Shown here one piece after another: positions 1 to 52,551 of a stretch of DNA of 64,000 nucleotides. Made by a program: the position numbers and the translations under genes. The stretch covers positions 23,083,884-23,147,883 of the forward strand of contig OZ316891.1 of NCBI GenBank assembly GCA_973895155.1, written 5' to 3'. The notes under the pieces were generated by a model that saw only the letters and a list, made by a program, of their open reading frames with translations, searched no databases and had not been told where the DNA came from. Origin of the DNA: Marsupella aquatica. Taxonomy: Eukaryota > Plantae > Marchantiophyta. Within the stretch, counting starts at the first letter, position 1. Every line of letters starts with the position of its first letter.

Positions 1-64
1 GAGAAACACAAGAAGATGCATGAGCCCGTATGGATATAGTCACGCGAATGGTCGCGTCACACAT

Positions 65-778
65 TATAAAGACAACATCCTCTACACTCTGGCCATTGAT
101 AAGTGACGTCTGTTGAAGTGCTTGATAAGAACTTGATCAACATGTCTCACACGTACAGATGCTCCCATATATCCTCATTCAGATCCCAATCTCGATATAG
201 ATTTCTAATCGACCAGATGGGATAATCGAACGCAAGACAAAGCCCTGAATCTGATAGCTTTCATAAATATGGAATGAGGTCATCTCTCAAAACGACATCA
301 TCCAACGATCCTTGAAACGACTTAGCGAACAATAATCCGCATACAATTGTCTGGCATGTATGGGAAGGACAGGCATCAATCTAGATTATATTCTCTGGTC
401 GATAATTTTGAAACATATCACGTAGTCTCTCGATAGATTTGAAGACAACAGTCTTATAATTTTTCTTCACATAACCAAGATTCCAGCAATGATCCCGCGT
501 GAACACATATATTAGCTACGACAGGTCGGTGCTCGACAACACTTTTGAAAGTATCTGATAAACCAGTTTATCGTCGAGAATAGACCAGACCATCACATCA
601 AAATGATCATAACAGAATTTTATAAGATCATGAAGATGCAGCCTCGGAACGACACATAGAGATCCGATACGAATTTTGGGTGTCGACTTGAGCTGAGGAG
701 TATATTTTGAAACAGAGCACAGGAAGTTTTCCAGTCCTAAAACTAGAAGTTGACGCGACCTGCTCCACTTAGACACTT
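65..778 (-). pseudogene. Second FCP1/NIF (HAD-like CTD-phosphatase) domain of the interrupted multi-domain gene; degenerate active site
   Basis: Reads QLLVLGLENFL...VVPRLHLHDLIKFCYDHFDVMVWS...VFKSIERL...ENII*IDA, the LLVLDLD / RP.L..F / V.VWS / N.ILVDD layout of NIF domains. GLE replaces DxD and there are in-frame TAG stops. The left limit is approximate. Confidence 0.7.
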
Positions 779-905
779 GTAAATGAACAATTTGATTCTC
801 ATATTATGCAATTGCAAACAACCACGCGACCGAGCGCGTCACTCCCAAAATATAAAGTTCAATTTCAATCAATTTATAAATAATAATTGATAATAAACAA
901 TAAAC

Positions 906-1346
906 GTTTACTTATTGGACTTATCCCAGGCTTCTATAGCACGGTCTTTTTTGGCAGATAAGTATTTCATAAATTCGTCAAACTTTTCTAAATGGTCTTT
1001 ATTCCCCTGATTACGAATGATCACATTTCTTCTCCAAAGATTTGTCTTATCAATATAATCTTTCTCAAGATTTTCTTGAGAGAACGTTGGAATCCCATAT
1101 CCACTAAGGAGCTCGTGGAATGTCAACTTGTCAATTGACATGTCGCATAGATATGGATATACTTTCTTTCTAAAAAATAGGTCATCATCGAGCCCAGAAT
1201 ATGCATCGGGATACAGCGATGAATAGATAGAAGTCATTAAGGCTCGTTTTATATGCAGCATCATCGACAAGAATGACATTCTCAATGTTGTAATCTTTAA
1301 TATCGGCGGCAATGTCGAAGAGACATTTGACAAATAAGGGGATGTC
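906..1346 (-). pseudogene. C-terminal half of the first FCP1/NIF domain, separated from its N-terminal half by element A
   Basis: DIPLFVKCL...ENVILVDDAAYKTSLN...LYPDAY continues ...GQESTRLIGKNNND from 38949 across the ATGTC TSD. There is one frameshift near 1225. Confidence 0.8.
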
Positions 1347-30840: not shown

Positions 30841-30886
30841 TACCTACGCTCCCTTCCTAACTTCATATCTCACGGCTAAAGAAATG

Positions 30887-31322: not shown

Positions 31323-34300
31323 GAGGTTTTTCCCCGTGACAGGAAACAGTAAACAGGAATTATCATAACAGCAAAAATGGTCAAAGATAACAGGAGTTTT
31401 GTGCGCAATGCCGAAAGAAAATTCCCTCTTTAAGGACCAAAATTACACTACAATTTGAACTGAGCAATTGTAATATATGTAACAGATACAATTATTATAG
31501 ACATAAATCTTTACTAGCGCCAAAGATTTTCTACACATGAAGGCATCATTTGATAATAGCTCAAGAATGCTTGCAACAAAAATCATCACAAGAGCAATAG
31601 AAGTACATATAAATCCTAACCAAGTAAGGATTTGCAATTCTTGAGTGTTTGGATCTGGAATGTTATGCTCTCTCAAGCTGATCCCTCATTTAGTGCAAGC
31701 CAACTCTAGTGCATCTCCATTGACATCTAAGGATAATCAATGAACTTGCTCTTCCCCTATAGATGAGACGGGAGATGAGATTGTCTTGCTGATTGAGTCT
31801 TCATTCCTTTGCTAAGCGTAGACACTCCATATATGGTGGTCCGCCAAGAGGATTGTTGTATATAACATTATGACCAAAGAAACTGTTAGTTCATCTATGT
31901 ATATACCAATATTCACGCTCAAACCTATCGTGCACGACGTCAAAACTATATAAAGATTATAAGACAAAAGTTTATTCCCCTTTAGACACCCTAATTGTCA
32001 TGCTCAAACTAACTTGAATTATATTGAATCATACTTTGATTTGGACGTCTAGTAGTGACAAACTATCGATAAAGGAGCACATCATATCAAGGGTTCCATG
32101 CATCTTCCAAAGTACTACCGAGAAGATTGTAAATGTGTGGATTGACCAAAGGTTAACATCCTCACGGAGAGTGATGTGAGCAAAAAGATATACTCTTGCT
32201 ATCAAATGCAATACACTCTGGTCATTTGAATGCTCTAACCAATGATGAGGAGTTTGACATATTGTAAATTTTGATTGAACCGCCTTAGACCATTAGAGGA
32301 TGCTATGTTCTTTTTTTCTAGTAACAAGGTCAGCAGCCGTGACATTAGATAATATTAGTGATAATATAACCATTAAAATGTTACAAATGATGATCTAATA
32401 TAGTAGCACCACAAACTAATATAATAAATTGATAATTAGAGCCATTGGTTTTGACCAAAATTTATAGCAGCGCCTGGCGCTTATCAAAATATATCCTTCA
32501 GGCTATAGTCATTTTTGTTCATATTACCATAGTAGCACTCAACGCCAACAAAGAGTCCTCTTTGGTGAGGTCTCATTTACATAGATATTTCTTTATTACT
32601 TGCAAAATTGCATGACCTTCCAAAATATCCTTTGGTGTATTTAACAACAATAGCAAACACAAGAGATAAAACGGTAATACTACTAGTGAAATAGGTGGTA
32701 TATCAATAAATAATTAAAGCTCACAGACTCAAAAAAATGTTTTTCTAGAGGGTTTGGGCCAAAGTCACATTACTAGCTTTTGGCGCTAGTAATGTTCCTT
32801 TGTTTTTCTACATTTTTTGCGCAAAATTTCTCTTGTAAATTTCTCAAAATGGTGCTATTATGGAGGGTCCAAGCAAGTGTGACATTACTAGCTCCCGGCG
32901 CTAGTAATGTTAATTTATTTTTATAGCCCAATTTTCTAAAAAAATTCTCATAAATACACTCAATATGATGTTATTTTAAAGGGTCCAAGCGAGTGTGACA
33001 TTACTAGCTCCCGGCGCTAGTAATGTTGATTTATTTTTATAGCCCAATTTTCTAAAAAAATTCTCATAAATACACTCAAAATGATGTTATTTTAAAGGGT
33101 CCAAGCGAGTGTGACATTACTAGCTCCCGGCGCTAGTAATGTTAATTCATTTTTATAGCCCAATTTTTGTAAAAAAAATTCATAAATACACTCAATATGA
33201 TATTATTTTAAAGGGTCCAAGCGAGTGTGACATTACTAGCTCCGGGCGCTAGTAATGTTAATTTATTTTTATAGCCTTTTTTGCTTAATTTTTTCCCATA
33301 AAGACACTCAAAATAGTGTCATTGTGGAGGGTCTAGGTGGGTGTGACATTACTAGCTCTTGGCGCTAGTAATGTTTTATCATTTTTGTTACTCTTTGCTT
33401 ACTTATCTTTTGTAAACATGCACTCATATAGTGTCATTTTGGAGTGTCTTGGTGACTTGAATATTACTAGCTCTCGGCGCTAGTAACATTTTTAAATGTT
33501 TTATACTAATTTAGCTCAATTTTTTGTAGAAAAATTCTTAAAATAATATCATTCTTAGAGGGGATCAAGCCAAGTAAGATATTACCAGCACCCGACGCTA
33601 GTAACATTTGTATCTTTTTTATCTTTTTTATTAAATTTGTTTTATGGGTTTATGTTTATTATTTCTTGTAATTAACTCTTGTGCCAAAGTTTCTTTAAAA
33701 AATGATGGATGTTTCTACACATAAATGTGTCATTTGATGATAGCACCTAATACTTTTATCAATCAATACTTCAAATAAATATGATTTATGATAGCGCCTA
33801 GGGCTATTATACATTCTGCACAAGATTTTAGGACTATTGAGATAGCAATTAGGTACTAAATTAGGGATTATATCATATAAATATATTCAATTTGTCTCAA
33901 TTTCTTTTGCATCTGGAGTTATTATGGGATTTATTTCTAGATTTAATCCAAGAGTTTGATCTTCATGACCTTTAAACACATCAAATTACGCCAATTTGTA
34001 TAGTAGAGTATGGCATTACTATCATATTTTCCTTGTTCTATACTAGATATTTTGGGGTTGCTAGAGAGTGTCAAACTCTAATCCTATTGTAGCCTAAAAC
34101 TTTTCTCATTTTCTTAAGCACCTCACATTCTTATGAGAATAATTTAGAAGTAATTCTATTTTTTTTTTATGAAAATAACAACAACCCACATATATAGAAT
34201 CAACAACTTGAAAAATATAAAATATGTATTACTTGAGATTTCCTATATAATTGAAGGTTTGATTTAATTAGGAATTAGATAAAAAAAAATTCCAAATGAG

Positions 34301-34918
34301 GAGTTTTTTGGCCAAGACTGTGTCCCTCACGTAAGCACTCTTTCAATAATCTTGATGATGATGTACACTTTAAGTCTCCCCCTTAGAATTTAAAGAGGAT
34401 CAGATTTGGCCAAATGCAAGAAATACGCACTTGGTTTATAGGAGAAGTATATTGCATTTTTGTAAGAGTTCAACAAACATAGGAATTTGTTGTATGTTAA
34501 TTGTAAATCTTGTGACTATGTAAAAACTATGATGGTATTTTGACTAGCGTCGGGAGGGGGTGTTAATGATAACCCTTGCCAAAATGCTAAGTATCCACCG
34601 ACAAAATACAAATTACATACTTTCCAATAAACAATGCACATTTTGTTTGCCTAACATGTGATGTAATTTGCTAATTATAACCCTTGCAACTAATATGAAA
34701 ACGTATCATTGTATTTTGGCTAGCGCTCGACGCTAGTAAACTTATCCCATTATAACAAAAAGCGATAGCCTGGATCATGAATATCATAGAAAATATATTT
34801 TTGGCTCTTGAAAATGAAATATTTTTTTTGTTGTGAGCGCAAAAACTCCTGTTATCTTCCTTGAATTTTCCTGTTATGATTTTTCCTGTTTACTGTTTCC
34901 TGTCACGGAGGTCAGGCC
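31323..34918. mobile_element. Non-autonomous TIR DNA transposon (MULE-like, ~3.6 kb, AT-rich)
   Basis: TSD (C)CTTCTGAC, 8-9 bp, at 31314-31322 and 34919-34927; ~90-bp imperfect TIRs with core CCGTGACAGGAAACAGTAAACAGGA; empty site at ~3983; no transposase. Confidence 0.88.
32730..33650. repeat. Tandem array, about 8 x 116 bp, each unit with a palindrome
   Basis: ACATTACTAGC...GCTAGTAATGT (degenerate in the last two units) starts at 32767, 32882, 32998, 33114, 33230, 33346, 33461 and 33579. Confidence 0.92.
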
Positions 34919-35426
34919 CCTTCTGACTGAGTTCTACCATGCACTTGAAATACAGACAGTACATCTCATATACAAGCTCTGTGAACTAAGCCATGAGGCC
35001 AACTCTATTGAGTACTTAGGTATGAGGAAACATGAATATACACAAGGGTCACTGTATAACTAACCGAGAGCTTCTCTTACTACTTGATCCCAACCCTGTT
35101 GGTGCAACTAAAAACTTGCTAAAGAAGAGGCCCTGAACTCCCCGCAGCCCAGGTACTTATCCTGGTCGCGGATCCGCCTGATTCCTTGCAGTGTAAGCCT
35201 AATCTACCTACAGTAATCTACTTGACTGTAATCTACCTATGTACAGCAAGGCAGGAGCACAAGTGTCACCCTCACCCGTGGATCCAAAATCCCACTAATC
35301 TAAGTGTCAGGGCCGTCTCCAGGTCCTGATCCTAAGTCTAAACTTGGAGATCAGCGCCCGCCCTTCCCACTCACGCCTCCTACCTCCATGTCCGCCTTCC
35401 CTAAAAGGGACGGCGCCCTTACACCG

Positions 35427-38400
35427 TCACGACACCGGTGGCTGGTCCTCACTGGACACCCCCAACGCATCCTCTATAGCCACTGCCGTTGGTCCGTCCT
35501 CTAACAGATTACCTGCCCTTGACCGAGTCAACTCTTCATCGGCCTGACTGGGTCCACCCTCGGCTTTGGCCTCAGCCTCGGTCAAGGCCTCCAATACGGC
35601 TACGGCCTCCCCGGCATGTTCTAGTGGAGGATCCGGTACCTCGGTATCATTACTGGTTCTCCCGGCCTCGCCCTTGCCATCTCCTCTTCCTAGGACTGGT
35701 GGATCCACCGTCATGCCGATGCTGGAGATTGGTGTCGGGTTTATCTTCTCGGTCACAATGGCTTGAGAAGCCGTATAACTCCCAGACCCAGAAGGTTTCC
35801 GCTTCTTTTGCTTCCCTATTTTGACAGCCGGTTCCTTCCCCTTGCCACTTACCTTCGGCACTGGGGTGAGTGTTTCGGCTTGTCCTGCGGCCAATACTAC
35901 CCCTGGTAACTGGGTTCCCCCAATTGGAGTTGGACCTGATGAAGCCAAGCATTTAAATACTGCGGCTTGTGTCTTCAGCCGCTCCGTTTGGCTCAAGGGC
36001 TCCGCGGATATCTTCGAGCTTTCCTTGATAGGATTTCCCTAACTCTGCTTCCTTCTGCTCAAGGGCTCCGCGGATATCTTTGAGCTTTCCTTTCAACGCC
36101 CTCTCCCTTCTCTGGTTCTCCGCCATTGCTCGATTGTTGGTTGCTAAGTGGGCCTCCTCTACATCCCTTAGCTCCTGCTTCCATTTCTCTCTTTCTTTGG
36201 CTGTGCCGGCCAACTCTCCTTGGGTCCGAATCAGTTTATCCTTGATAATCTGATTGTCAGACTGAGCGGTATCCAACTGCCCCTGCATGATGTTTAGCTC
36301 ATGTTGCTTAATCCGTAGCTCATCTTGGGCTTTCTTGGCCACCTGCAAGACTTCCACCTCGGCTTCCTTCTCCCTAAGCCGCCGGATGACCTCGTTCTTC
36401 TTGCTTCTCTCCAAAGCCACCGCTTCTTCTAATCGGTGCTTTTCCAATATCTCCCTTTGGAAAAAGGGTCCCTGCTCCAAATCCTCCCCAAAGATGCTGA
36501 GCGCCAGGTCCCCACACATCTCCCCGTACTCCATGGCTCTATCCTTAGCATAGGTGGAGTAACTAGAAGTCATCGGCATCAACCACCGTGGCCTCTGCTC
36601 CCAAGCCGCCTTGTGGATTTCTTCTATGGTGGCAAGAGGGTTGCTTCATTTTTTGGCAAGCCGCCTGATGTCCTCTGGCCAATCTCCTCCTAGTAAATCC
36701 TTCTCCCTAGCCAGGGCTGCTTTCTCTTCCTCCCTAAGTCGCTCCTGAAATTCTTGTGCCGTCTGCTTTATGCTGTCAAAGCTCAGGGGAGCAATCTCTG
36801 GTGGGGGAGACTCGGGGCTACTCTGTTGGGTGGGGTCCCCTCAAACTACTCTTGGAAGCGTGGGGATAAATTGGCCATAGGTCCTTACTCCTGGAACATG
36901 ATGATCCGATCCATAGGCGGAGTTATCATTGTTGTAGTCCTCCACCGCCTCCTCCACTACTTGGACTCCCGGCTTCTCCCTTTGGTCCCCTGGTCCAGTC
37001 ATGAAAATGGCCTCTGGTTCCTCTGGTTTCCAGGCTGTCATCTCCCTCTACTCTCCGCGGGAAGGAGCTTTAGGCTGCTCTGCCTCTGATTCGGGGCTTG
37101 AGGCTCCCACATACATTTGCACTCCCGGCTTGTGTTCTGGCCTCCTGGTCTCCGATAAAGGGGTCTTCCCTTCTGAGTCGGCTTAGGCCGACCTCTGGGG
37201 TATTGTCCTGTATTGTTGCCGTTGCCATTGCCGGAATTGTTCTCCTTTCCTTCTCCAGCAATTTCAGCAGATTTTGCATGCCTGGTTGCTGCATCGGCAC
37301 GTCTTCTTTCTTTGTCCGAAACACTTTCTGGATCGTTGGACTGTCGGGCTGGTTGGGCTTCTCTGGTGCCGGCCCCTGCTCCAGAACCTCCTTCGGTGCC
37401 CTTGCCGATAGGGGAAGTACTGGGGCAAAGATTTGACTTCTGGCATACCGGCACAACAGCGGCATGTGATAGCCAAGCCGGGACACACTTCCCACGCCGA
37501 TCACCTACTGTTCCTCCTTCAAGATTTTCTTTAGTTGGTTGAGGAGGTACCCGTTGTAATCTCGGCTTGGGTCTGGCCTTTCTGCCAGGTAGACCTGAGC
37601 CTTGCCGATCTCTGCCCTCGGCAAGTTATAGTGCATGGTCACCCGCAAGAAATTGATCATCTCTCCAATGTGCGGGTTGGTGCAGGTGTTCCGGAAGAAG
37701 CCATTCTTTGTTGATGGTCCTGGGAACGACCGGAACTCCTTGTCAGGTAAGGTCTTCCTGGTATCAACCTTGGTCTTATTACCCATCGGCAAGCCAAACA
37801 CCTCAGCAATCACCCGGGGAGTGAGATAGAAATCCTTCCCATACACCCTCGTGGAATTGGTCTCGGGTTCCCATGATCCCACAAATTCTAATAAGTCTGA
37901 GTCCGGCACCTCCGGCTTCAGCCATGGTAATCTTACAAAGGCTTCCAAGCCGGATCCGGCCATGAAGCCTTGGTACGTCTTGGTCTGCATGGCCGTAAAG
38001 CATGCATCCTCCTGCCGTGCAAAGTGTAATTGCACCTCCTCCGGTAGGGTCGCCGCCTAGCCTTTCCAGGTGTCATCATTTGTTAGAATGGCCTTGATGG
38101 GATCGACCTCTTCCTCTTTGGCGTTTCCCCTTGTCCTGCTCTGCTGGCTTCCTAGGTACCGCCAACCTTGTTCTTTTTGCCGGGGTGGCCTCTTCATTGT
38201 TGTTTCCTTTCCTCTTCATCTTGGCTGTCGTGGATGTTTCTCCTAGCAAGGTTGCCTTTGTCCACCCCTCCGTGTTACCCTTCAACTCCTAGTGTAGGTT
38301 GTTGCAGCGATTGATGGCTTCCCGGATGCCGATGATTCTGTTTTTGCAAAACAGAAGGTCGTCGAGCTGATTGGCAGTAGGAGTCCACAAGAACTCGGCC

Positions 38401-38832
38401 TTGATAAGTTCTCCTCCTAAGAAAGCCGTCTTCTGTAGTTCCCAAAGCCGAGCAAGTTCCTGTCATTCTTGAGCTGCTCTCTCCGATTCTTCGTCCTCGT
38501 AAGTCCTGACGTACTCACCTGCCCGTTCGAACAGGCATCCCCAAAAATGTGCCGCTTGATTGACGTTGCTCATACCCTCCTTGAGTCGATCGTTGGTATC
38601 TGCTCCCACCCCGAGTGCTTGCCTAAGCAGTTGACAGCATTTGTCCTCCCATAGTCGTATGCCCAGTTCGTTCTTGCAAATGAGTCACTATTCCTCGCGA
38701 GCGGTCCTTACCCCTCTCCTCCTCTGGTCTTCCCTCATTGGTCACCCCTAGCCGCCGACGCTTAGCGCGCCCTAACCCTAATCGTGTTCTCTCCCTCGGC
38801 GTCCTTACTTCTGGCCTCGGCCCGGGTTCCAT
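35427..38832 (-). pseudogene. LTR-encoded accessory ORF of family A, 5' LTR copy
   Basis: Track fragments from 38623-38838 to 35427-35996 match the other two copies; stops, frameshifts and a deletion near 35990. Confidence 0.85.
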
Positions 38833-38948
38833 AGTCACCCTTAATTGTTTATATTTTCCTTGTTTTGTTCCTATACTAAGGTGTTTCCAGGGTACACTCC
38901 TGCTTTACCATGTAAATCGGGCTAGTGATTCCTAGCTAGGCATCACCA

Positions 38949-39425
38949 ATGTCATTATTATTCTTCCCAATAAGTCGAGTTGATTCTTGTCCCCATATAA
39001 ATTTAATACGTTTCAAAACTTCGGGTCGAAGTATCAGCCTTACACAAGATAGAATATTCCGTTTGAACATGCACGACCAGATTGCAATGTCGTATAGATC
39101 TGCCACCTTCTCAAGAAATTTCATTAAATCAGGCCTTGGATAGATAACCTTGTGCATCTATCTCACACCCCTTGACCGAATGGGCATCCCAGGGCTGATC
39201 TTCTCTGACCAGATAAGTACCTGATTCAGATCAAAAATTACAAGTCTCTTCTAAACTGGTGACTTCTTTGTCGATGGATTAGGCGCCATTTGTACCTATG
39301 ATTTTTGTGCCGCAGGGTTTGGAGAACGTACTAGAACGGTCTGTTTGTTTCCCACCTCCGGACGATCACCGAACTTCCGGACTGGTGCCTTTGATACTCA
39401 ATCAGGGGTTTTTGGGATAGGCTTC
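38949..39425 (-). pseudogene. N-terminal half of the first FCP1/NIF phosphatase domain
   Basis: KRLVIFDLNQVLI...YPRPDLMKFLEKVADLYDIAIWS...FIWGQE (plant DLN-type NIF motif); two in-frame TAG stops. Confidence 0.82.
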
Positions 39426-39582
39426 TGTAAAACATTAAGAAATGAAAATAAGTTTATAACGCGAACGGTCGCGTGACTACACAGAGAGACACTAAAATAA
39501 AGTGTATTACATGTACAAGACGGTTGTTCAGTGCTGGAATTCCATCGGAAATGTCAATCATAGCAGCACGGATCCCGGTAAC

Positions 39583-39933
39583 GGGTATAGCGACGGAGAC
39601 AAGAAACAGGTAAATAGGAATTTTTTTTCCTGTTTTTAGTATGCTGTTACCAAGAAAAAATCAATGTTACCAAGAAAAATGACAATTTAAAATGTCTCCT
39701 AAAACATATTATTTCCAAAAAAAATTAACAATGCAACATTTTTGGCTAGCTTTGGGCGCTACTATTAGCAACGCCGGGCACTAGCAAAAAAACTGGTCGA
39801 CCAAAAAAAATAATCTTTTTCAAAATAATTTCAAAAATAATTTCCACCCATTTTCCTGTTACCAGTTTTTTTCCTGTTACTAGTTTCTGTTATTAAATCC
39901 TGTTTCCTGTTTGCTGTCTTTTGTAAACACCTC
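39583..39933. mobile_element. ~350-bp MITE related to the 31323-34918 element, inserted at the end of the Ulp1 exon
   Basis: TSD (C)CCGGTAAC / (C)CCAGTAAC; GGG.../...CCTC ends; AAACAGG-type subterminal repeats and TAGC..GCGCTA motifs shared with the larger element. Confidence 0.72.
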
Positions 39934-40727
39934 CCAGTAACTAGGTTATTTGCGGACGTTGGCTTGCGGAAGTCCATGTCAAATAACGACAAGACTATCT
40001 CCCTACGAAATTTCTCAATTTGATCCGCGGGGAAATTAATTTTTTTTCCTTGACACAAGCACTTGGCGTATCTCAAGATAAACACACCACAATTGTGGCC
40101 GTCACTCTGGTGAGGAATATCATTCCGATATATCCGTTCCCAACCTGAGAGATCCAAGTTGACACCAGTTCTCCAACCAATTTTGTCGGTGGAGTACTTC
40201 CCAACAATATCTAGCACCCCAGGATTTTGTTGATTATGAACTAGAGAATCTAGGTACTCGAGCCGTTTCTCCTTCGGATACACAACTACCAATGACCAAT
40301 GTTCTTTCACAGCATTGTGTACTAGAAAGACCAGTTTGTTGTATTCACTGATTTTTAGCGGAAACTCCTTTGTCCAAGCTGCTCTCTCCTCATCAAAAAT
40401 GGTAGGATCCATGGAGAGAAGCTCAAAATGGTGTGTTTGGAAGAATTTGACAAGGTCTGACTTTCCAACTCTATCGAGAATCAGTTCGAGAAAACTCAAA
40501 TAAGCGTTAATTATATCATCGGTGAGCAACTCGCGCGGTCTCAGACACATCATATGTTTCCTCTTGATCAAGTGTTGTAAGAACTTGGTCAATAGCTCTT
40601 CCATATCCTTAGAAGGATCAAGGCATTGATCTATTTGACTAGCCAAATTTTCAAAAAACTGCAAAAAACAGAGATTTCGGTACGCCTTCAAATAACGTAC
40701 TGAGGTTGTAGCCTAAGGGTTCTACCT
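39934..40727 (-). CDS. Ulp1/peptidase C48 (SUMO protease-like) domain exon
   Basis: LRPRELLTDDIINAY...EHWSLVVV...YLDSL...PHQSDGHNCGVF; His-Asp-Cys triad and oxyanion Gln intact. The gene as a whole is disrupted. Confidence 0.92.
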
Positions 40728-40791
40728 CAGAAAACAGAAACAATAACAAATCAATAATAAAATAATGACGTCTATAATAGAAACTTTAAGC

Positions 40792-42344
40792 TTATAGCTT
40801 GCGAATGACCTTTGGATTGGGTGGATCCGGCCTTTTCGCAGCTGATCTCTTGGGTGCCTCCTTCGCAACAACATCCTTCAGCCCTCCTCGAGACCGCAGT
40901 GATTGCTCCACCAGACCAGTTTGCGAAGGTCGGAGCGATGAGGCGGGAAGACCTTCAAATGGTTGTGGCATTTGATTTAAATATTCCACAATCTGGGAAT
41001 CCGATTCCAAAATATCCGGTGCCACAATTTCTGCACGAGTGACCTCTGCAATATATCGGGGTTGAGACCACGAACCCGGTCGCGTCAAGTCAGCTGTTAG
41101 TCTCTTAACAACTTGAGCCAAGTCTGGTGCCAAAGACGTTCCCAGGTCTTGCACTCGATTCTTGGAAAAGTGGACATTATTGATGATTGTCTCCATTATG
41201 GATGCAGTGGCAGTCTTCTCCTCGGTAATCAAAAGACCCTTCCAATATTGCAAAGCAAGGACTGCCTGGACTTGGAGCTGCTCCAGTGAATATTTATTCC
41301 AATCATCCAACGAGACCGTACTTAAGGGTGGATTGTTAAATTCAAACTCCGGGTGAAGAAAATAGTCTAATATTTTCTTCTTAACTGCAATTGAGGGTGA
41401 AGAAGGCTTCTTCAAATTCAACTTTATTTTTGGTAGACGTTGTGCCTCAAGAATAAGCGAAAGATCCTTGGCCCTCTCGGACTCCTTCCTCGCTGCCTCC
41501 ACCTTCTCCGCCTCCACCCTCTCCAGTCTTGCGGCTTCTTCTCTCTCCAGTCTTGCGGAATTGACCTTTTTTGCCTCCAACTTCTCCGCCTCCACTCTCT
41601 TCGGTCTTGCGGTCTCGTCCGCCATCCTCTCGGCCAGCAACCTCTTAGCCGCCACACTCTCCACCTTGGCCCTATTTGCCTCTGTCACTAAAAGGACTCT
41701 CGCAGCCTCCGCTTTCTCAACCTGGGCTTTCTCAGCCTAGGGTTTCTCAGCCTCCGCTTTCTCGGCCTCCGCTTTCTCCGTCTGGGCTTTCTCAGCGTCG
41801 GCTTTTTCCTTCTTCTTTGTGGCAGTTGCTTTTCTAGCTGCCACCTTTTTCTTCTTAGCCTCCTTCTTTTGAAACTCCTCTTGCCGGGCCGCCTCTTGTC
41901 GGGACGCCTCTTGCCGGGCCTCCTCTTGTCGGGCCGCCTCCTGCCGGGCCGCCTCTTGTCGGGCCTCCTCCTGCCGGGCCGCCTCCTTCTTTTGAAGCTC
42001 CTCTTGCCGGGCCGCCTCCTGCCGGGCCTCCTCTTGCCGGGCCTCCTCCTGCCGGGCCGCCTCCTCTCTGGCCTCCTCCTGCCGGGCTGCCTCCTCTCGG
42101 TCCGCCTCATGTCAAGGCTCCTGTATGGCCTCTTCATCAGAGTCCTCAACATCCTCAGAACCCTCCATCTCCTCGTCCTCTTCATCAGCGTCCTCAGCGT
42201 CCTTCATCTCCTCTTCGTCACTCTCTTCCTCACTATTGTCGGAATCTCCGACATTGTTCTACGTATCGGTCATCCACTCTGGATCTTGGTCATTGACATC
42301 CCCATCCGTGTCACCTTCCCCCTCACCATCCGCATCACCATTGC
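40792..42344 (-). pseudogene. Large exon with acidic tract, EEARQ/AEKA charged repeats and a downstream globular segment
   Basis: 15-bp-period repeats at 41700-42100 encode E/A/R/Q/K helix-like runs and continue into track ORF 40792-41688; cut at 42345 by solo LTR E. Confidence 0.6.
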
Positions 42345-43769
42345 TGTGGACTAGCTCAAAATAGGGTATGTAAGAAACTCACCATTTTTTTTGCTTTTTG
42401 TACAAGGATAGTAAGAAATACATTTTAGCATTAGTAAAGTACTTAGGGTTTGTAACCCTAAGTCACTAAGGAAGGATAGTAGGGAATCATGGAAGGGAAA
42501 AATATGTTATTCTAAGAAGATGTAAAGGGATAAGTGAGGTCTTTATGGTAGGGCAGCAAATATTCTTTCCTTAGTTAGGATAGGCGACTAAGTCGGGACC
42601 GGAAAATGACCCAATACCTGACATCTCATTTTTGGCTAATATTTCTCCCATGGGTGCGGGGAGGTCCCTAGGGAACCTTGAAAAATTATGAAGTGAAGTA
42701 GGGTCTCAACCTAGGAATTTTGAGTATTTTGGCTGAACTTAAAATAACCATCTAGCGGGTCCCGGAGAAATTAGCCAAGGGGTAGATATTTTTGGTTCGA
42801 GGTTAAAACTGGGTATAGTATAGCCCATAATATCCCTTGAAAGTCTAAGAAGTAGTTTATCAACTTTGGTTAGTTTTTGGGAGCACCTCAAAGATTGGGA
42901 AAAGTAATGCAACCTATAGATATGGGCAAACTTAGGTATTTTTAGAAAAGTCAGTGCGGGGTATTTAGTGCGTTTGACAAATTCAGGAGGGAGTCCTATG
43001 TCCAAGGATCCCATAACTATGCTCAGAAGTTCTTTTAGACCTATGGGTGAGTTTTGGCATGGCTTTAAAAAGGGCTAGTACAAAGTTTTCTCCCACGAGA
43101 GAACCAAAGTTTTTCCAAGTGTGGAAACGCGACGACGCTAAGTATGACTAAATGTGAAGTGTTTGAGAGCAAGAGAAGAGTCCATGCTAGGATGCAATCT
43201 TGGTCTAATCGTGAAGGGGAGGTGCTGGTACACAACCAAGGCCAGGGAGGCAAGGTTAAGGTGGAGCACTACTTTGGGGTTTAGAGAGGATTGTATCTTG
43301 AGGGTGGAAAAGTACCTTGCTTTGTGTGAGAACCAAGAGGAAGAGTTCTTTGCAAGAAGAGTTTTTCTAGAGCTCAAGGGGGTGTGTGGACCCAAACCAA
43401 GGCCAGGGGGCAAGGTTAAGGGGTAACACTACCTTGAGGATCTTGAGGGGACTTAAGCTTGAAGAGAAAAGTACTTGGGGTTCTTGGGTGTTTGTTTTAG
43501 GGTCTACTCTAAGGTGACAGCTTGGAGTGGATATCCCCCTTGCTAATCCTTGGAGTAGAGGAGAGAGAAAGAGTGGGAGTGCAAAAGTAGTCAAGGTGAC
43601 TACCTCTCTAGAAGTGGAGAGTTGAAACTACTTGTGTATGGTGTACTTAGACCTTGCATGCACATTTCAGAAGTTTTATCAATCCTTTGTGACCCTGGTA
43701 TGACATGGAGCAAGTATTAGGTAGTTTTTAGGGGAAAAGATGCTTAAGCTCCTTGACAAGTGTTTGAGA
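42345..43769 (+). mobile_element. Solo LTR E (1425 bp), a diverged and shorter relative of the B LTR in the opposite orientation
   Basis: TSD ATTGC (42340-42344, 43770-43774); TG...GA ends; reverse-complement similarity to both ends of the B LTR but lacking ~1.7 kb (B ~13010-14735) at a junction near 43140. Confidence 0.9.
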
Positions 43770-43774
43770 ATTGC

Positions 43775-45176
43775 TCCCTGCATCCTCAACATTGAAGCCG
43801 CAGTCGACTTGATCTGAATAAAATCAGATCATTAGATAAGAATGACTCACACGCATATTCGCGTGAAAAGAAATGTTAAGAATGTCCACGCGCATGTTCG
43901 CATGACGCAATAAAAAGTAAGAGGTTTCAAAAGTAACCTACCTTGGATTGGCCCACTAGGGTACTCCGTTGGTCGAATGTACAATCGATCGGAATCTTCA
44001 TAGAGGGCATACTCTTGCAATAATTGATTACAAATATTATCAGGGATATGTTGTTCGTGGAGGACATCCAAAACATCAGCCCTGAGAGTAGTTATGGATG
44101 GACGGTACTTCATTAATTTATCTATACATTTTTCTATACTAGCCCGTACTGGGTCAATCAATGATAGCGTTGTATCAATTGTTGCCATGGTGTGTTGCAA
44201 GAAACAAGACAACTCCCTATGCGTTGCCATAGGGCAGTAATATTTTACATTGGATCTAGCATCCTGTAAAAAAAGCCGAAATTAGTTCACAATATTAATT
44301 GAGAATATAATAATCTAAATAATCTTAAAATTGAAACCCCAAAATATAAATCTAAAAACTTACCATTAAGCACTGGATCAAGTTCGTTCCCTCGCCGAAG
44401 CATATAGCCCATTCCCCACATTGGACGAATTGACTAACAATACTTTCAAAGAATGGAAGTATCTTTTCTGGGGAAGGTGTCGTGTACTCGCCGCTCTCTT
44501 CAAAATTGGCTATCTTCTCAATCCAATATTTGGAGACCAATTGGAACTTGAGGGCTTGTGGATCGCCCATTGTGCTGAAGGCCAAGCTGTGAAAAGCGTA
44601 GGTTACAATAAGCTTCTTCTCCTTCAGCCGCTTCTGAATATAATGGCTATCAACAGCAACGTAGTGTGTGTACTTCCCTAATTCCCGTTTGATTAAATAA
44701 GACTCAACGGGAGAGGCTACAATAATAACCACATGGTGTGGTTTTGCCCCTATCTCGCTAGTAGCACAAAATAACCCCTCATAGAATGAACAATTTGGCG
44801 GACGCAAATCTCCCATTGATGAGGAATCAAAATAAATCAAGCTTGCAAGGTTCTTGTGTTCATGTATGATACAGTCTGCAAACCCAGTATTTTGTATATC
44901 CTGCAGGGATCGCAATTTCAGCCTCTCACTGACCGGCCGCACTAGTTGGTTTTTTTGACTATCAACTGATTTCTGTATTCCTTCCACCAACCTGTAGAAT
45001 ATCGGGTCGATCTCTTTCAACAAATTATCAGCACTATGTAAGCACTTCTTTAGATAAGCACTCAGCGCCTCTCTCAACTGCTTCAGCACCATCTTGTCGA
45101 GCTTAAAGCGACCTGGGCCGGCTCTACTTTCTCCCGGCCCGACCTTGTCACCGGTCGGGATCGACCGGGACGACAT
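43775..45176 (-). CDS. First exons of the interrupted multi-domain gene; possible degenerate amino-methyltransferase-like fold
   Basis: ORFs 44352-45176 and 43847-44230 joined by AT-rich GT-AG introns. The resemblance to N4/N6-MTase motif order is weak and judged by eye. Confidence 0.5.
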
Positions 45177-46762
45177 ATGTCATTTGTCATCCAAAATCCT
45201 CCTATTTGTCCGACAAGTCCAAACTAGGGTCTGGAGGGGATCCAACTCTTTCTCTCTAACTAGAGGGCACGCACTCCTCTCTGATTAGAGGGCACGCACT
45301 GACCCATCATTCTTCCGTCGAGTAGGTTTCCCAACAATTTTCAAACGTACAGTAGAATGCTATCCAATGGAGATGGTTACGTGAAAGGGAGTGGTTAATA
45401 ATTCATCAGTAGCCTCGACTACCCGTTCTTTGAACGTGAACAGCTAGGGAGGATAATAAAAATGTCACCAAAATAAAATTCCTTAGTCAAATTTTTTGAA
45501 GTTAAATGAAATGATAAAACAACCATCATACATGCCATCATTTTAATAATCATACCCCAAATCATACATTACATATCATAGTCTTGTCTTTTTATGCACA
45601 CCCTTCTTTCTATGCACATATTATGGTGGGGCCATAGAGCTCATGTTTTAATACAAATAAAAATCATGACAAAAAGCATGATTGCATGATTCTCATTTGA
45701 CATACATCATAATCATGAGCTTTCCCATCCGTATACACTGGGTTAAATCAACATCGCATTAAGGCTCCCCAGCCTTCTTGGGGCCCCGTACCCTACCCGT
45801 CACTAATCCCAATGCTGCTGCCCGCAAGCCCGCGCGTCCGTCAATCACCGTTCTGGTGCACTTGAAACATATTAGCCCCAATCGGCGATGAACAGAAAAT
45901 TTCCGTCCATTTCAAATTTCACGGCCTTTAGGGCGCGGGACACGCTTACCCTCCAACGTCGCCCACTCCATTGCCCATTTGCAAGTTCTTCCTATTTTTA
46001 TTCAATTTTTGGTGGTCGTACCGATCTTGCATTGTGGAGAGAGCGTGCCTTGCACTTTTCTGTCTCCAAAGTCTTTGTCAGGGCGTGGTGAGGAGGACAG
46101 CAGTCAATCCGCTTGCCTGTGGACCCACATTCTTCACGGTTCTGTATGTGGACACATTGTCAATGTTGGGGACCTTTTTACTTTTCTAATCGTTTCTTGA
46201 GTGCCTGCTGTGGTTTGACGATCGTGCGGTTGGGAAGTGATGATTGGTGCAACCCTGCCCCCTTGCAACGACAACGATGGTGTGTTTCTTATGCAATGCT
46301 GACTTGCATTTTGTGGCGTGGGGCATAAGGTCCCTTGTTTGAGCTTGCAACTTGCGCTATGCAATCGTCGTTCTTCATAAACCTAAACTCTAAACTCTCT
46401 ATTTGTGTTACTGTTATGGTTTTGTGACAGTAACTTCCTCAATTTACCATAGACTTCAGCTCTTTTGGGTTTCAACAATTGTGCGGCTGGGAAACAGAGA
46501 TGGGCGCAACACTGCCCCTTGCAACGACGACGGTGGTGTGTTTCTTTGAGACAACCATCCCCATGCTCTTCTCAATTAGATTTTGTGGCGGAAGTGGGGC
46601 CGGAAGGTCCCCCATTGAGCTTGCAACTTGCGCCATGTTATCATCATTTTTCATAAAAGTTAAACTCTAAACTCTTTGTTTGTGTTACCGTTCTGGATTT
46701 ATGACAGCAAGTTGCTCATTCTGCAGTGAGTGTGATCTCGACGATTTTATAGTGTTGTGACC

Positions 46763-49700
46763 ATGCCTCGGTCATTTTCAAGCCAGGCTAGGAAAAGCAA
46801 GTTGCCTATCCCACCACCTGAAGTATGGGCACAATTTCCTGAGGCACAAGAGAATGTGCATTGGTTCCGGCAGAAAAACCCTTCCTTTCTCAGAACTTCA
46901 GGATCTGGTTACGTTTGCAAGGTGATGACTGATGATAGTTGTACACATTTCATCCGAAGAACCTCCTTCCTGGATCACATGCAATCCTTACATCGCATGA
47001 ACCCAGGAGAATGTAAGAAAGGTTGTCCGAAGACCTCAGCCCGACAAAGGTGTGTAACTTTATTTGCATTATATGTGACTATTCTGCCATGACAACATTT
47101 ATGTGATGTTTTGTGTCATGTTCACTGTTCTGGCATGCAAATGTTCAGGAATCCACCAAGTACAGCAGTGATTGAACATATAATAGAGAATCAACACTTG
47201 GGTCATTTCGTGGACGGGTGTGGAAGCAAAAGAGGCAGAAGTTGACATGGTGGTTACGCTGGGCACATAATTTGAAGATCAACCATGAGGGGGATGAAAC
47301 CGAATGGATAGTTCAGAAGGCAACAGAAAGGTACCAACACTGGAGGCGATTGGCTGCCTTCACGAGCACATTGTCTAGTGTTAGGGACAACACAGTGGCA
47401 TTTTGGAATAAGCATAGTCCTGACATTGATCCTGAGGAGATGCGTGCTAAGGTTTGTCGCTTACCAAATTGCTTTGCCTCATACATAATTAATTGTTTGT
47501 TTGTGTCTTTGTTCTGCCATAACTTTCTTGTGATCTGAATTTCCAAATGATTGCATGTTGGGCCTGTTTGCCGAAATGTGAACTCGAAGATTGGAGTAGC
47601 GATGATGGAATGTCTGAATGCAACTTGCAGCAAACCAATTTTCAAACTGAGAAGTATGTCTTCCACTCACGAAAGGTAGAAAAACCCATACATAAGCCAA
47701 AAAGAAACAGAACCAAAAGGCTAAGGGGAAGCCATCTCGTGAAACAAAAAACCCCTTAACAAAGCCTACTCTAGGAGCAAGAAAAAAGCAATGCATGCAA
47801 AGGAGCAGCAGGCAGAAGTTCAACCTGACCGAGAAGAAAGAGCAAAAAGAAGGGAAGCTTGTAACAATGACAAACCCACCCAAAGGAAGAAACAAAAGAA
47901 GATGGTTGTTACTGAGGTACCATTTCACAAGCTTTCTCTTTTGACGATTTGTACTTGTTTGTTTTTATTGTTCTTCTGGTTTGCAAGCTTTCTCTTTTGA
48001 AAATTCATACTTGTTTGTTTCTATTGCTGTTCTGGTTTGCAAGCTTTATCTTCCGACTATTCATAATTGTTTGTTTCTATTGTTGTTCTGGTTCGCAAGC
48101 TTTCTCTTCCAACAATTCATACTTGTTTGTTTCTATTTATGTTCTGGTTCGCAAGCTTTCCCTTATGACAATTCATACTTGTTTGTTTTTATTGTTGTTC
48201 TGGTCGGCAGGAAGTGGCGGACAAGGAAGTCTTGGAAGCTACGGAAGAAGACCCTGACACTATCAGCCATGGAACAGAGCCTTCACATGAAGATAGTCAT
48301 GAAGGAGAGAAACACTCAGGTACTGGTGATGAAGAAGAACAAGAAGTCCTGCAGAACGAATATGCCAAAAATCAAGCCAACAATGAAGAATCCGCCTTTG
48401 AACATGAAGGCAACGAAGCAAGAGACCAACTCGGGGGGTTAACTAAGTGTATATTTTGGGGTACCACGTGCGATCCTAGCCTAATATAAATAGACCTATT
48501 TTATAAAGAAAATATTCCAAGAATATTCTCCATTTTCAATATTAATAATCTATTTTATTTTATAAAAAGTATATATTAGAGAATATTCTATAAACATGAG
48601 TTTATAATACCTTCTTTTGCCTCCTACGCTTTTTAAAAATTTAGTTAACTTCTATCAAAAATACCTATTTTGGATTGCATGTGGTTCCTAAGATTTTTTA
48701 TAGTCAACCCCCCAAGGAGACCAAGGCACTGAATCAGGCTCCGAACAAGCCACTGAACAAGTAGACTACATTGAAAATGAAACTAGATTCCCAAATGATC
48801 AAGAATCCTACGAAAATGAAGGTGGAGGCACAAAAGAGCAAGAACCAGACGGAGACAGTGAAACCTCTGGAGTACACACTAGTACAAAGCATTCAGAGGA
48901 TATTGAAAACACAAAAGCCACAAATGTGCCGTCTACTACTAAAGTATGGGCACTTGCTAGCACTGTACAATTTAGGGGCATTGTGAGTTTTAATTTTGTT
49001 TGCTCCTGTTCATATACATGATAGGCAATTTTGACTCTTTATGGATTACTATTTTGTGTTGCAGGGTACTCCTTCCGTAGAGAAAAAAGGCTCAAGAAGA
49101 AGCCAACAACCAGGAAAAAGGGATCAAGGACAAAAACCCCAAAGAAGTTCAAGGTTCTTGCCACTATTGGAGGTAAGATAAGAGGACTTCAGGGACGACT
49201 GATGGTCGTTTCACTTTTACTTACTACATTTTCTGTGGATTTGTGGAATGAATTCAACTTACTATTGTTCTCATCATTGTTCTGGTAGGATTGCTCCCGA
49301 CCATCACACCGCCAAGTTCCGATGAGTCATGGGGTATGATCAGGTGGAAGGCTGAATTAGGTCTCCTGCTAACCCATGCAGCAGAAAATTTACTGCATGT
49401 TGTCCCCACTTTGCCCAATTCTGTAGTTGGTCTTGATGGGCAGGTCATCCCCTTCATATATCAAAAGCTACAATATATCAGCCAAAAATGGCAAGCAAGT
49501 TTGGCTACCACTACACGCAAAGAGGCGGAAGTCCTACACACAACTCCAAGTTTTCCTATGGGTTTACCACACAAGGTAACAGTGCCTTGCCAACCATTCT
49601 CTCCCTCTGAATATAGGTATGATGTAGGGAAGAGGACTTTGCTAATTACACTTTCTGTTATGCTCTACAGGAAGATAGCGGTACCTTTTCCGGCAATTGA

Positions 49701-49914
49701 CAATGCTCATCCATGGCCGCCATCTCTATATTGTTGGGTTGGACCAGATGGCATCCCCATTGCCCCTCGCCATTGGGACTTGTTAACAACCACCAGAATT
49801 CAGCTTAGAGCCCTTCAGCTTCACTCAGACAAGAATGTCACAGTTGAGACCATTGGACCCATGACTGACTGCCAAAAATTCCCACCCCTGGAATTGGATT
49901 CTTTGCCTGTTTAG
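46763..49914 (+). CDS. Multi-exon accessory gene convergent with the MULE transposase (C2H2-like Zn finger, basic and acidic regions)
   Basis: Exon-like ORFs at 46763-47049 (YVCKV...C...FLDHMQSLH), 47149-47451, 48211-48945, 49064-49171 and 49288-49914 with GT-AG boundaries; disrupted by a MITE. Confidence 0.6.
47928..48207. repeat. Intronic tandem array, 5 x 56 bp
   Basis: CAAGCTTT unit starts at 47928, 47984, 48040, 48096 and 48152. Confidence 0.92.
48430..48716. mobile_element. MITE (287 bp) with 8-bp TSD
   Basis: TIR CTCGGGGGGTTAACTA / TAGTCAACCCCCCAAG with further inner symmetry; TSD GAGACCAA (48422-48429, 48717-48724); AT-rich interior; splits an acidic exon. Confidence 0.85.
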
Positions 49915-50129
49915 GCAGGGAAGTATAGAGCCCACTAGACATAGACATCAATGGAAATGTCATGGTTGAACCATGTCCAATGTAACTATGCCTGCCTCTT
50001 GGCAACTATCTATATAATAGCAAATGAAGTTATTTACACATCAAAAGAAACCAAATAGTGTGAAAGCACTCTGCTCTTTGTACATTCACTCTCCAGCTTG
50101 CAATGAATTGTCGTGATACATCACCAAAT

Positions 50130-50730
50130 TTGTGTGACTGTTCTGGCAATTGTTCTTTTGCACCGCTACATTTTATACATTTGTGTGACTATTCTGGTAG
50201 CCGTGTACTTGCCCAATACAAGAGTTGTCGTACGTGTTCATGTGACTATTTTGGCAGCCCTGCGATTGCCCAGATATAAGGGTTATCGTCTTTGTGTGAT
50301 TGTTCTAGCAACCCCGTGTTTGCCTAGCTACACGGGTTTTTGTGTTCGTGTGACTGTTCTGGCAGCCCTACGATTGCCCAGATATAAGGGCTGCCATCTT
50401 CATGTGACTGTTCTGGCAGCCTCATGCTTGCCTAGCTACAAGGGTTTTGTGTTTGTGTGACTGTTCTGGTAGCCTTGCGATTGCCCAAATATAAGGGTTG
50501 TCATCTTCATGTGACTCTTTTGGCAACCCCGTGTTTGCGCAAGTATAAGTGTACTGTTGCACTTGTTTTAGTGTTCTGGCAGCCCTGCATTTGTGACCTA
50601 TGGTTGTTTCTCGTGTTTGTGTGATTGTTCTGGCATATGAAAATTCTTTGTAGACTTTGACGGTCATTGTCCTCATCACATTCAACTAATGAGAAATACA
50701 CTTGCATTTATGTGACTATTCTAGTGTCCA
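50130..50730. repeat. Tandem array of ~54-bp units with a 108-bp higher-order dimer, between the convergent MULE genes
   Basis: TGTGACTGTTCTGGC at ~50133, 50184, 50241, 50295, 50349, 50403, 50456 and onward; two unit types alternate. Confidence 0.9.
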
Positions 50731-52551
50731 CTTATTTGCACACACAAGATGTGAAGTATGCCTAAGATCAATGAGTTAATCAATAGCTAGGTAACTTATA
50801 GTCACTTTTAAAAGGGTCTTAATAAGCAGTGTTGTGTGGTCACTGAGCACCAAATTTCATTATCATGAAGCCTCCTCATGAAGGAATACATTGAGGTCAA
50901 TATTGGTGTTTATGTCTACATCCCTAGCACCACCTCCAAAGTGCATGACACAAGCAAGAAGTGGTGGAGTGAACTGATTTTCTGTCCTACGTCGCCGCCT
51001 ACCGTCCTTAAATTCCTTGCCTAACCTACTCAGATGCTGCCTGATAGATTCCTGAACCACTTTGCGCTTGGATGGTAGTTTACATGGTGTTGTGCCATCC
51101 TCCTCCTGCCATTCAAGAAAGTTGCTAAGTTACCGCTCTTCAATTATTTGGTTTTTCATACAGGACAGAACAAAAATTGGAACAAACAAAAAATATAGAA
51201 CTTACCATATTAGTAATTATTTGAGATGAAGCTGCTTGTTCTCTTGTTTGTGTTGTCCTCAAAGCCATAGTCCTCCTTCGTCTCTTCCCACCGTGGTAAA
51301 TGTCCACAACACCTAGACGTCACTTGGATGTAAGACCCATAGGCCTGACAAAAGCATCCACAGGACCTATATTGTCTTTCATTGAGAGGTGTTTAGTTTG
51401 TTCTTGGCTCTTCACTTTGTTCAAAGTAAGTTGTGTTGCCAGGAATACTTGCTCTGTTAGACGGGCATCCCCTTCCACAATGAGCAAAATCTCATCAAAC
51501 ATCTGTTGCACAGATTGTCTGAGGGACTGCTCTGGGTTCTCTTTAGGCAGAACAGAAACATGAAGGCTAGATTCCATTGTTTCACAAACCACATTAGGCT
51601 CAACTTGGCCTTCTACTTCTACATGTTCAGGTGGTGTCTCGATGTTCTCATCCGCATTCAAATGTGAGATGCCACCCATGAGGCTACCAAACCTGGTACC
51701 TAGTTGTTGAACCAAGACAGCACCTTGACAACCTCTCACTAGCAATCCCTTCAATTGGTGCTTGCACATGTTCCCTTCATCAGCCCACTTACAACAGCAT
51801 GAAGGAAAGTATGAATATATATTGTGCACAATATACTCTCTCCCAATAGATTTTAAACTTTTCACAATTGCCTGATTGGGCAATGTTGGATCAGGAAAAC
51901 AGACCTGATGGTCTTTCATTTGATGCTCTGCCTTGTGAAGACTATTCAAGACTATTTCCTCTTTCTTGTAGTTGATGACTCTTCCCCTTGCTTTGCACCG
52001 AATTTGGTACCAAAAGAATGGAAGCATCACTTGAAAAAGTGCATTCACAATCCGATCAAGGCGACATGCTCCAATGGCCCCTATTACTCTCCTTATCATC
52101 TTTTTCAAAGTGCAATGCCAAGCTTCAATTGCACCATTTGTATTCTGGTTGGCACGGGGCATTGATCGAACAGCCCTCATCCACTTTGCTGGAATATAAG
52201 ACATGCCACAACATTTAGTACCAGAGATCCAGGCGGAGTTCTGAAGTATTCCACAACTATAGAGACACAGGATATTATGCAATACAGAACAGCTACAAAG
52301 GCACACAAACTTGTGCAATACAGAATAGCTACAAAAACATTGCAAAAATAAAATACATGGCAAGATATAAATACAATACAAAAACCTTAGACCAAATGGA
52401 CATGTTGACAACAAAGAATTTACTAAAATGGCCAGGCATACCCCAAATAGCAAACCACATACCTGTTCTGTACATCCAAGTGTCCTCAAAATACTTCAGA
52501 AATAGCTTTTCAAAGTTGTATTTAATTTTGAAGGCATGCCACAAGGCTTGC

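What the first reader, a model, noticed from the sequence alone, without database searches (positions are those of the whole stretch)
38949..45176. Interrupted multi-domain gene: SUMO protease plus two CTD-type phosphatase domains plus a charged helix
Seen: after removing A (TSD ATGTC), the MITE and LTR E, one minus-strand exon chain runs from 45176 to beyond ~65. It contains an N-terminal globular domain, an acidic/EEARQ helix, Ulp1 with an intact triad, NIF domain 1 (DLNQVL) and NIF domain 2 (GLE, likely pseudo-enzyme). Known: Ulp1 domains are common cargo of plant MULE (KAONASHI, VANDAL) and CACTA elements; FCP1/SCP phosphatases act on the Pol II CTD. I know no standard host gene with this fusion. 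Inference: a transposon-borne toolkit for deSUMOylation and dephosphorylation of transcription or silencing machinery.
Basis: partly seen in the sequence, partly recalled or inferred. Interest (0 to 1): 0.72.

Follow-up and report, generated by a model that had tools for sequence, protein, structure and literature searches.

The report
Dead transposon cargo: SUMO protease–phosphatase fusion
This is a broken copy of a much-repeated plant gene whose exons line up into one reading frame joining a SUMO-protease domain to two phosphatase-like domains; it is likely transposon cargo that would dock on a palindrome in its own introns to keep the element from being silenced.

Summary
The exon chain is real. 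Removing three insertions (each with a target-site duplication) leaves six exons and five GT-AG introns in phase, 1,678 codons long. Order: unassigned globular domain, acidic/EEARQ coil, Ulp1 (H-D-Q-C intact), NIF1, NIF2.
Corrections: this copy is dead (11 stops, one frameshift) and cut at its 5' end, so ATG 45176 is probably not the start. Neither NIF has DxDx(T/V), and the protease lacks the SENP lid Trp.
The gene is highly repeated: thousands of variant contigs cover it, and other copies lack each insertion. The MULE-like element next door is covered about tenfold less deeply, so it is probably not the carrier.
New here: all 5 matches to the palindrome ACGCG-N6-CGCGT lie in the gene's introns or at its 3' end (0.14 expected), and the gene keeps its CpG (0.83, against 0.13-0.59 in 9 neighbouring TE segments).
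Best reading: a self-targeting anti-silencing cargo with a pseudo-phosphatase tail. Carrier, splicing, the methyltransferase-like fold and all activities are unproven. The scan found this family before on other DNA of this genome.

The parts
44364..45110 (-). Surviving part of exon 1: alpha/beta globular domain of no assigned family (methyltransferase-like by eye only); cut at its 5' side
   Evidence: 46% identical over 263 columns to P0155, E 1e-77, ending at the same donor; no Pfam, PHROG or PDB match of note; folds failed
43942..44263 (-). Exon 2
   Evidence: GT-AG borders, open frame, phase 0 to 1
43849..43903 (.). Two one-mismatch copies of palindrome ACGCG-N6-CGCGT in intron 2
43770..43813 (-). 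Exon 3, piece before the solo LTR
42345..43769 (-). Solo LTR inserted in exon 3, duplication GCAAT; related to the LTR 12360-15523
   Evidence: empty-site joint 42339>43770 in one contig of run X3
40810..42339 (-). Exon 3 main part: acidic tract, EEARQ/EKAEA 15-nt repeats (predicted charged helix), linker; 3 stops
39932..40658 (-). Exon 4: Ulp1/C48 protease domain, His-Asp-Gln-Cys present, Leu at the SENP2 Trp410 position
   Evidence: Pfam E 6.6e-16; SENP2 E 6e-26 with profile A3
39583..39931 (.). MITE-like insert behind the protease domain, 10-bp duplication with one mismatch
   Evidence: empty-site joint 39577>39937 in one contig of run X1
39511..39572 (-). End of exon 4, in frame with Ulp1 once the insert is removed
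39459..39474 (.). Perfect palindrome in intron 4
38949..39424 (-). Exon 5, first half: linker and NIF1 N-half (DLNQVL); 4 stops
   Evidence: Pfam NIF 26.8 bits
1347..38948 (-). Ty3/gypsy-type LTR retroelement splitting NIF1, duplication ATGTC; LTRs 30910-38948 and 1347-12167 (3.5% mismatch), gag-pol about 24851-30900, further nested insertions
   Evidence: three X3 contigs run from 38949 into letters equal to window 1329-1341
912..1341 (-). Exon 5, second half: NIF1 C-half (Lys and DD motifs), 4-nt frameshift near 1230
824..839 (.). Perfect palindrome in intron 5
58..759 (-). Exon 6: NIF2 (GLE, no nucleophile Asp); 4 stops; 21% identical to NIF1 (E 5e-13); 3' end uncertain
   Evidence: Pfam NIF 40 bits
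42..57 (.). Perfect palindrome at the predicted 3' end of exon 6

Best explanation
This is a dead, 5'-truncated copy of a highly repeated gene whose exons form one reading frame (globular domain, charged coil, Ulp1 protease, two NIF domains), likely the accessory gene of a large DNA transposon. In intact copies the protein would be aimed at the element's own DNA by an N-terminal module that is missing from this copy, reading the ACGCG-N6-CGCGT palindrome in the introns (inferred). The coil would act as a spacer. Ulp1 would strip SUMO from silencing or chromatin factors near those sites (inferred from family). The NIF pair would more likely bind phosphorylated partners such as the Pol II tail than dephosphorylate them, because NIF2 has lost the nucleophile and NIF1 the second Asp (motif loss shown, role inferred). 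The net effect would be escape from CG methylation. Shown: frame, domains, insertions, repetition, palindrome placement, CpG retention. Inferred: splicing, carrier, binding, all activities.
For: One in-phase frame, 11 stops against 101 by shuffle. Variant contigs laid on the gene region: 2168 (X1), 3196 (X3), 95 (X5), 329 (X6); median summed depth of 15 gene-specific bins 8,067 in X1 against 128 for a unique junction contig, and empty sites for all three insertions. Palindrome: 5 of 5 matches in the gene's introns or at its end, 0.14 expected, 0 of 100 shuffles reach 5. CpG observed/expected 0.78-1.01 in gene parts against 0.13-0.59 in 9 of 9 neighbouring TE segments. Relatives at 46-55% identity break at the same intron positions; all other Ulp1 hits are at most 37%. 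Precedents: VANC binds motifs in introns and spacers of its own element (PMC5735166, passages); Ulp1-bearing KIU/VANC genes (PMC13317346, passages).
Against: No transposase or termini of the carrier were identified; the adjacent MULE-like element has about tenfold lower depth. No DNA-binding domain is present in the window. The methyltransferase-like reading failed every test: HMM score -1.2 with 55 of 300 shuffles as high, HHalign probability 0.8%, pLDDT 36 and 30. CpG retention also fits an unmethylated host gene, and this copy has itself gained A/T against its sisters (138 versus 88 places in X1). The lid Trp is Leu here and Cys in P0152/P0003, Trp only in P0002. Introns 1 and 3 carry no palindrome. 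Summed contig depth is not a copy number (tool warning). No full-length fused relative was found.
Confidence: 0.45

Rival explanations
1. Same cargo, but NIF1 is an active phosphatase in intact copies: the DLN reading is decay or is tolerated, and the protein removes both SUMO and phosphate from transcription machinery.
For: NIF1 keeps the first Asp, the Ser, the Lys and the DD motif positions (motif roles recalled). One G-to-A change separates an Asp codon from the Asn codon, and this copy shows such drift.
Against: DxDx(T/V) carries the activity in this family (PMC4163886, passages). NIF2 lacks even the first Asp. One search showed only 40 of 797 variant rows and none at this codon, so the state in sister copies is unknown.
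Confidence: 0.15
2. The Ulp1 part and the NIF part are neighbouring but separate transcripts; the in-phase link is a remnant or a product of my splice choices.
For: No RNA evidence of the junction; splice sites were chosen to fit; unreviewed notes on related elements describe a separate phosphatase-like gene (e1-10635241) or doubt that Ulp1 is fused (e1-10634255).
Against: After the insert is removed the Ulp1 exon has no stop and reaches a GT donor; the 86-nt intron and AG acceptor are in phase with NIF1; no room for a promoter.
Confidence: 0.13
3. An expanded host gene family (tandem or segmental duplication), not transposon cargo, with ordinary unmethylated gene bodies.
For: Normal short AT-rich introns, high CpG, no carrier seen.
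Against: Very many divergent copies; repeated TE insertion and decay; no annotated protein with this architecture among 27 long Ulp1 hits scanned, of 151 returned; private palindrome.
Confidence: 0.12
4. Passive captured fragments (Pack-TE or Helitron style) with no selected function; the palindrome is an RNA hairpin or a replication or capture signal.
For: This copy is non-functional; gene capture by TEs usually ends in pseudogenes (PMC13317346, passages); the palindrome can pair as a hairpin.
Against: Catalytic residues and intron positions are kept at 46-55% protein identity; phases match across all five introns.
Confidence: 0.1

Closest known systems
KAONASHI (KIU) / VANC genes with a Ulp1 domain in Arabidopsis VANDAL non-TIR MULEs (PMC13317346 and PMC5735166, passages seen)
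   Same: Multi-copy TE-type gene with a Ulp1 domain, tandem peptide repeats and a private short motif in introns
   Different: No VANC similarity detected (no such Pfam hit); two NIF domains added; motif is a 16-bp palindrome, not a 9-bp oriented repeat; the adjacent MULE-like element is probably not the carrier
ParB-like + N4C/N6A methyltransferase accessory protein of Ectocarpus Sola1-1_Ec32 (PMC12477816, passages seen; supplements not read)
   Same: Proposed design: large DNA transposon with an accessory protein that binds its own sequence
   Different: ParB part absent from this window; methyltransferase fold not confirmed here; 'ulp1' does not occur in that paper's main text
Plavaka accessory genes PAG2/PAG3 of red algae (bioRxiv 10.1101/2025.02.11.637652, passages seen)
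   Same: TE accessory genes paired with inverted-repeat sites, proposed self-modification
   Different: SET and 2OG-oxygenase domains there; Ulp1 and NIF here; sites dispersed in introns, not in tandem arrays
SENP1/SENP2/Ulp1 SUMO proteases (clan CE, family C48)
   Same: Profile match E 6e-26 to SENP2; His-Asp-Gln-Cys present
   Different: At most 37% identity to other Ulp1 hits; Trp410 equivalent is Leu; domain sits mid-protein
FCP1/SCP CTD phosphatases (Pfam NIF, HAD superfamily)
   Same: Both domains pass the Pfam cut-off
   Different: DLN and GLE instead of DxDx(T/V); tandem pair; fused behind a protease

Membership tests
Ulp1/C48 SUMO protease | C48 profile match above cut-off | tested here: met
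   59.2 bits, cut-off 20.7; 17 PDB sequences at E<=0.001, all SENP or Ulp1 type
Ulp1/C48 SUMO protease | His-Asp-Cys triad and oxyanion Gln | tested here: met
   Present in the window and invariant in 4 of 4 aligned sequences
Ulp1/C48 SUMO protease | Trp over the Gly-Gly tunnel (SENP2 Trp410) | tested here: not met
   Leu in the window, Cys in P0152/P0003, Trp in P0002; W410A lowers activity (PMC11587528, passages)
Ulp1/C48 SUMO protease | Cleaves SUMO conjugates | not testable with these tools
   Needs an enzyme assay
FCP1/SCP phosphatase | NIF profile match above cut-off | tested here: met
   26.8 and 40 bits, cut-off 21.8
FCP1/SCP phosphatase | DxDx(T/V) signature | tested here: not met
   DLNQVL and GLENFL; state in intact copies unknown (one search found no relatives)
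Beta-class N4/N6 DNA methyltransferase fold | Profile or structural match; DPPY-type and FxGxG-type motifs | tested here: inconclusive
   No Pfam/PHROG hit; 35-sequence profile not above shuffles, HHalign P 0.067 though aligned to the motif-I region over 66 columns; folds unusable; canonical motifs absent
ParB-methyltransferase TE accessory protein | N-terminal ParB-like domain | not testable with these tools
   5' part missing from the window; P0155 N-terminus has no ParB hit; no genome held
KIU/VANC (VANDAL MULE) | Lies inside a MULE with its transposase | tested here: inconclusive
   MULE-like transposase 5.7 kb upstream, but median depth 714/1,149 against 8,067/9,286 for the gene; depth is only a proxy
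DNA-transposon cargo (any superfamily) | Multi-copy | tested here: met
   Thousands of variant contigs and empty-site alleles
DNA-transposon cargo (any superfamily) | Termini, target-site duplication and transposase around the gene | tested here: inconclusive
   None found; 3' flank ends at the window edge, 5' part is cut

The most novel reading that the evidence does not exclude
A plant transposon family encodes one giant protein that finds its own copies through an intron palindrome and brings a SUMO protease plus a tandem pseudo-phosphatase reader of the Pol II tail, so that it holds polymerase on the element and strips silencing factors: an anti-silencing route through protein modification, separate from VANC and from self-methylation.
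Probability: 0.2. Interest if true: 0.8.

Novelty: new variant of a known kind. Interest (0 to 1): 0.5.

Why it matters
Ulp1 domains recur in plant transposons and their role is stated to be unknown (PMC13317346, passages). A family that fuses Ulp1 to two CTD-phosphatase-like domains, marks its introns with one palindrome and keeps its CpG gives a defined target site and a measurable read-out. That makes 'what does TE-borne Ulp1 do' testable outside Arabidopsis. I found no paper on a NIF domain as transposon cargo in two full-text searches; the library lacks most subscription journals.

Tried and rejected
No genome is held, so tBLASTn copy counts and flank inspection were impossible. No RNA holder was listed; this is no evidence on expression. 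Search for longer Ulp1 relatives gave 1 hit, an unrelated Ulp1-RT protein. 27 of the 151 Ulp1 hits, chosen mainly for length or flanking sequence, were scanned with Pfam: 0 of 27 had NIF. NIF alignment search found 0 of 540 candidates, with a poor alignment. ESM Atlas gave nothing for exon 1 or P0155. Metagenome scan gave 16 loci, 15 at 23-30% identity and one 21-residue match at 52%; 0 of 16 carry the palindrome. Two folds had pLDDT 36 and 30; Foldseek on the first gave no match at E<=0.001; the second was not searched. PDB, PHROG and phage searches for the N-terminal domain were blank; NIF2 had no PDB hit. The methyltransferase profile test was not significant. Rejected: ATG 45176 as start; 45410-45443 as an exon (contigs show many different flanks at 45410, a repeat end); the adjacent MULE-like element as main carrier. 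Two papers were not held. No supplements were read; those of PMC12477816 and the Bostrychia preprint may list further accessory domains.
Full report
Setting. The window is a nest of plant-type transposons: Ty3/gypsy elements (RT, RNase H, integrase, gag hits) and a CACTA-type element (DUF4218, DUF4216). No genome is held. The organism is coded in the run list; earlier unreviewed notes call it liverwort-like, which I did not test.

Insertions. A TG..CA LTR element spans 1347-38948 with ATGTC on both sides. Its two LTRs differ at 151 of 4,290 aligned bases, and the gag-pol at about 24851-30900 is its interior. A second gypsy element with identical 3,164-bp LTRs (12360-24850) is nested in it. A solo LTR with duplication GCAAT splits exon 3, and a MITE-like piece with a 10-bp duplication sits behind the protease domain. 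Contigs of public runs show each empty site: three X3 contigs leave 38949 into letters equal to window 1329-1341, one joins 42339 to 43770, and one joins 39577 to 39937. So the two halves of NIF1 are contiguous in other copies.

One frame. Six exons and five GT-AG introns (86-152 nt, 63-79% AT) are in phase. With one 4-nt unit skipped near 1230 the frame has 1,678 codons and 11 stops, all TAG or TGA; 200 shuffles give a mean of 101. Without the skip there are 34. I chose the splice sites, and the last acceptor is weak. Two borders have outside support: P0155 ends at the exon-1 donor and P0002 runs in at the exon-4 acceptor. This copy cannot make the protein. It also has more A/T than its sisters at transition sites (138 versus 88 in X1, P 0.001; 159 versus 119 in X3, P 0.02), as expected from deamination.

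The start. P0155 is 46% identical to exon 1 but only from 45107; its first 181 residues have no counterpart in the window. Contigs show many different flanks at 45410, the end of another repeat.

Domains. Ulp1 passes Pfam, its best solved relatives are SENP2 and SENP1, and His, Asp, Gln and Cys are invariant in the four family sequences. The residue matching SENP2 Trp410 is Leu here, Cys in P0152/P0003 and Trp in P0002; loss of that Trp lowers processing in SENP2 (PMC11587528, passages). Both NIF domains pass Pfam and resemble each other at 21% (E 5e-13), which suggests an old tandem duplication. Neither has DxDx(T/V), the signature tied to activity (PMC4163886, passages). By eye the N-terminal domain recalls a beta-class DNA methyltransferase without its motifs. 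A 35-sequence profile placed its best local alignment on the expected segment but scored no better than shuffles, and both folds failed. I leave it unassigned.

Repetition and carrier. 2168, 3196, 95 and 329 contigs were laid on 38900-45600 from four runs, most below 99% identity. In 15 of 30 bins (LTR, MITE, repeat-coil and edge bins left out) the median summed depth is 8,067 in X1 and 9,286 in X3; a unique junction contig in X1 has 128. This points to tens of copies or more, though the tool warns that depth is no copy number. The MULE-like element upstream (transposase motifs recognised by eye, no Pfam support) has medians of 714 and 1,149 in 25 of 30 bins. It is probably not the carrier of most copies. 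No carrier was identified here; unreviewed notes on the same genome disagree (Sola-like, Helitron).

Palindrome and CpG. ACGCG-N6-CGCGT occurs 5 times with at most one mismatch: twice in intron 2, once each in introns 4 and 5, once at the 3' end; 0.14 are expected and 0 of 100 shuffles reach 5. At two mismatches five more appear, one in exon 3 and four outside the gene. The gene keeps CpG at 0.83 of expectation (parts 0.78-1.01), against 0.13-0.59 in all 9 neighbouring TE segments measured, coding ones included. This fits long-term escape from CG methylation, but also an unmethylated host gene.

Mechanism. The arrangement parallels VANC, which binds motifs in introns and spacers of its own element (PMC5735166, passages), and KIU genes that add a Ulp1 domain of unknown role (PMC13317346, passages). 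Self-binding ParB-type accessory proteins are proposed for brown and red algal transposons (PMC12477816; bioRxiv 10.1101/2025.02.11.637652; passages). I had the palindrome before the look-up; the ParB lead and the self-targeting wording came from earlier AI notes and could not be tested, because that part is missing here. Most likely the intact protein is tethered to its own element, removes SUMO from silencing factors, and uses the NIF pair as a binding module (0.45). Rivals: active NIF1 (0.15), separate transcripts (0.13), host family (0.12), passive cargo (0.10).

Novelty. Ulp1 cargo and self-targeting accessory proteins are known. I found no Ulp1 + NIF protein among 27 of 151 hits scanned and no paper on NIF cargo in two searches. 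It is a new variant of a known kind, seen here in a dead, truncated copy. Interest 0.5.

Noticed in passing
window 1347-12167, 30910-38948, 52552-57189: The large retroelement has LTRs of about 4.5 kb that contain long ORF remnants (for example 10262-11557, 55671-57128, coiled-coil 4947-5876) with no Pfam family; a solo LTR of the family (duplication CTTGC) splits the MULE-like transposase.
   Followed up: partly
window 5775-9808: A 4-kb insert in the 3' LTR, absent from the other two LTR copies, holds its own minus-strand ORFs (7737-9056, 6954-7493) with no Pfam hit.
   Followed up: no
window 12360-24850: Young gypsy element: LTRs 100% identical over 3,164 bp, duplication CCTGG, one open 2,039-codon gag-pol frame, CpG only 0.13 of expectation.
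   Followed up: partly
window 31334-34908: TIR element (67-nt arms, 87%) with 116-bp tandem repeats inside the 5' LTR; its ends share an ACAGGAAA-rich motif with the MITE-like insert in the Ulp1 exon.
   Followed up: no
window 45900-52550 and 57190-57301: MULE-like element: minus-strand transposase remnant and a convergent plus-strand gene (ORF 49252-49911, no family hit) with 54-bp and 56-bp repeat arrays, a VANDAL-like layout.
   Followed up: partly
window 48430-48717: Very high-depth MITE-like insert (summed depth 65,000-177,000) with an empty-site joint in both runs.
   Followed up: partly
window 57302-64000: CACTA-type element ending in CACTAG at 57302, inserted in the MULE-like transposase; 135-bp perfect tandem duplication inside its transposase region (63392-63664).
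   Followed up: no
window 45111-45890: Two repeat-derived pieces in front of the truncated gene: a GC-rich stretch with a 25-nt tandem duplication, and a high-depth repeat ending at 45410 with variable flanks.
   Followed up: partly
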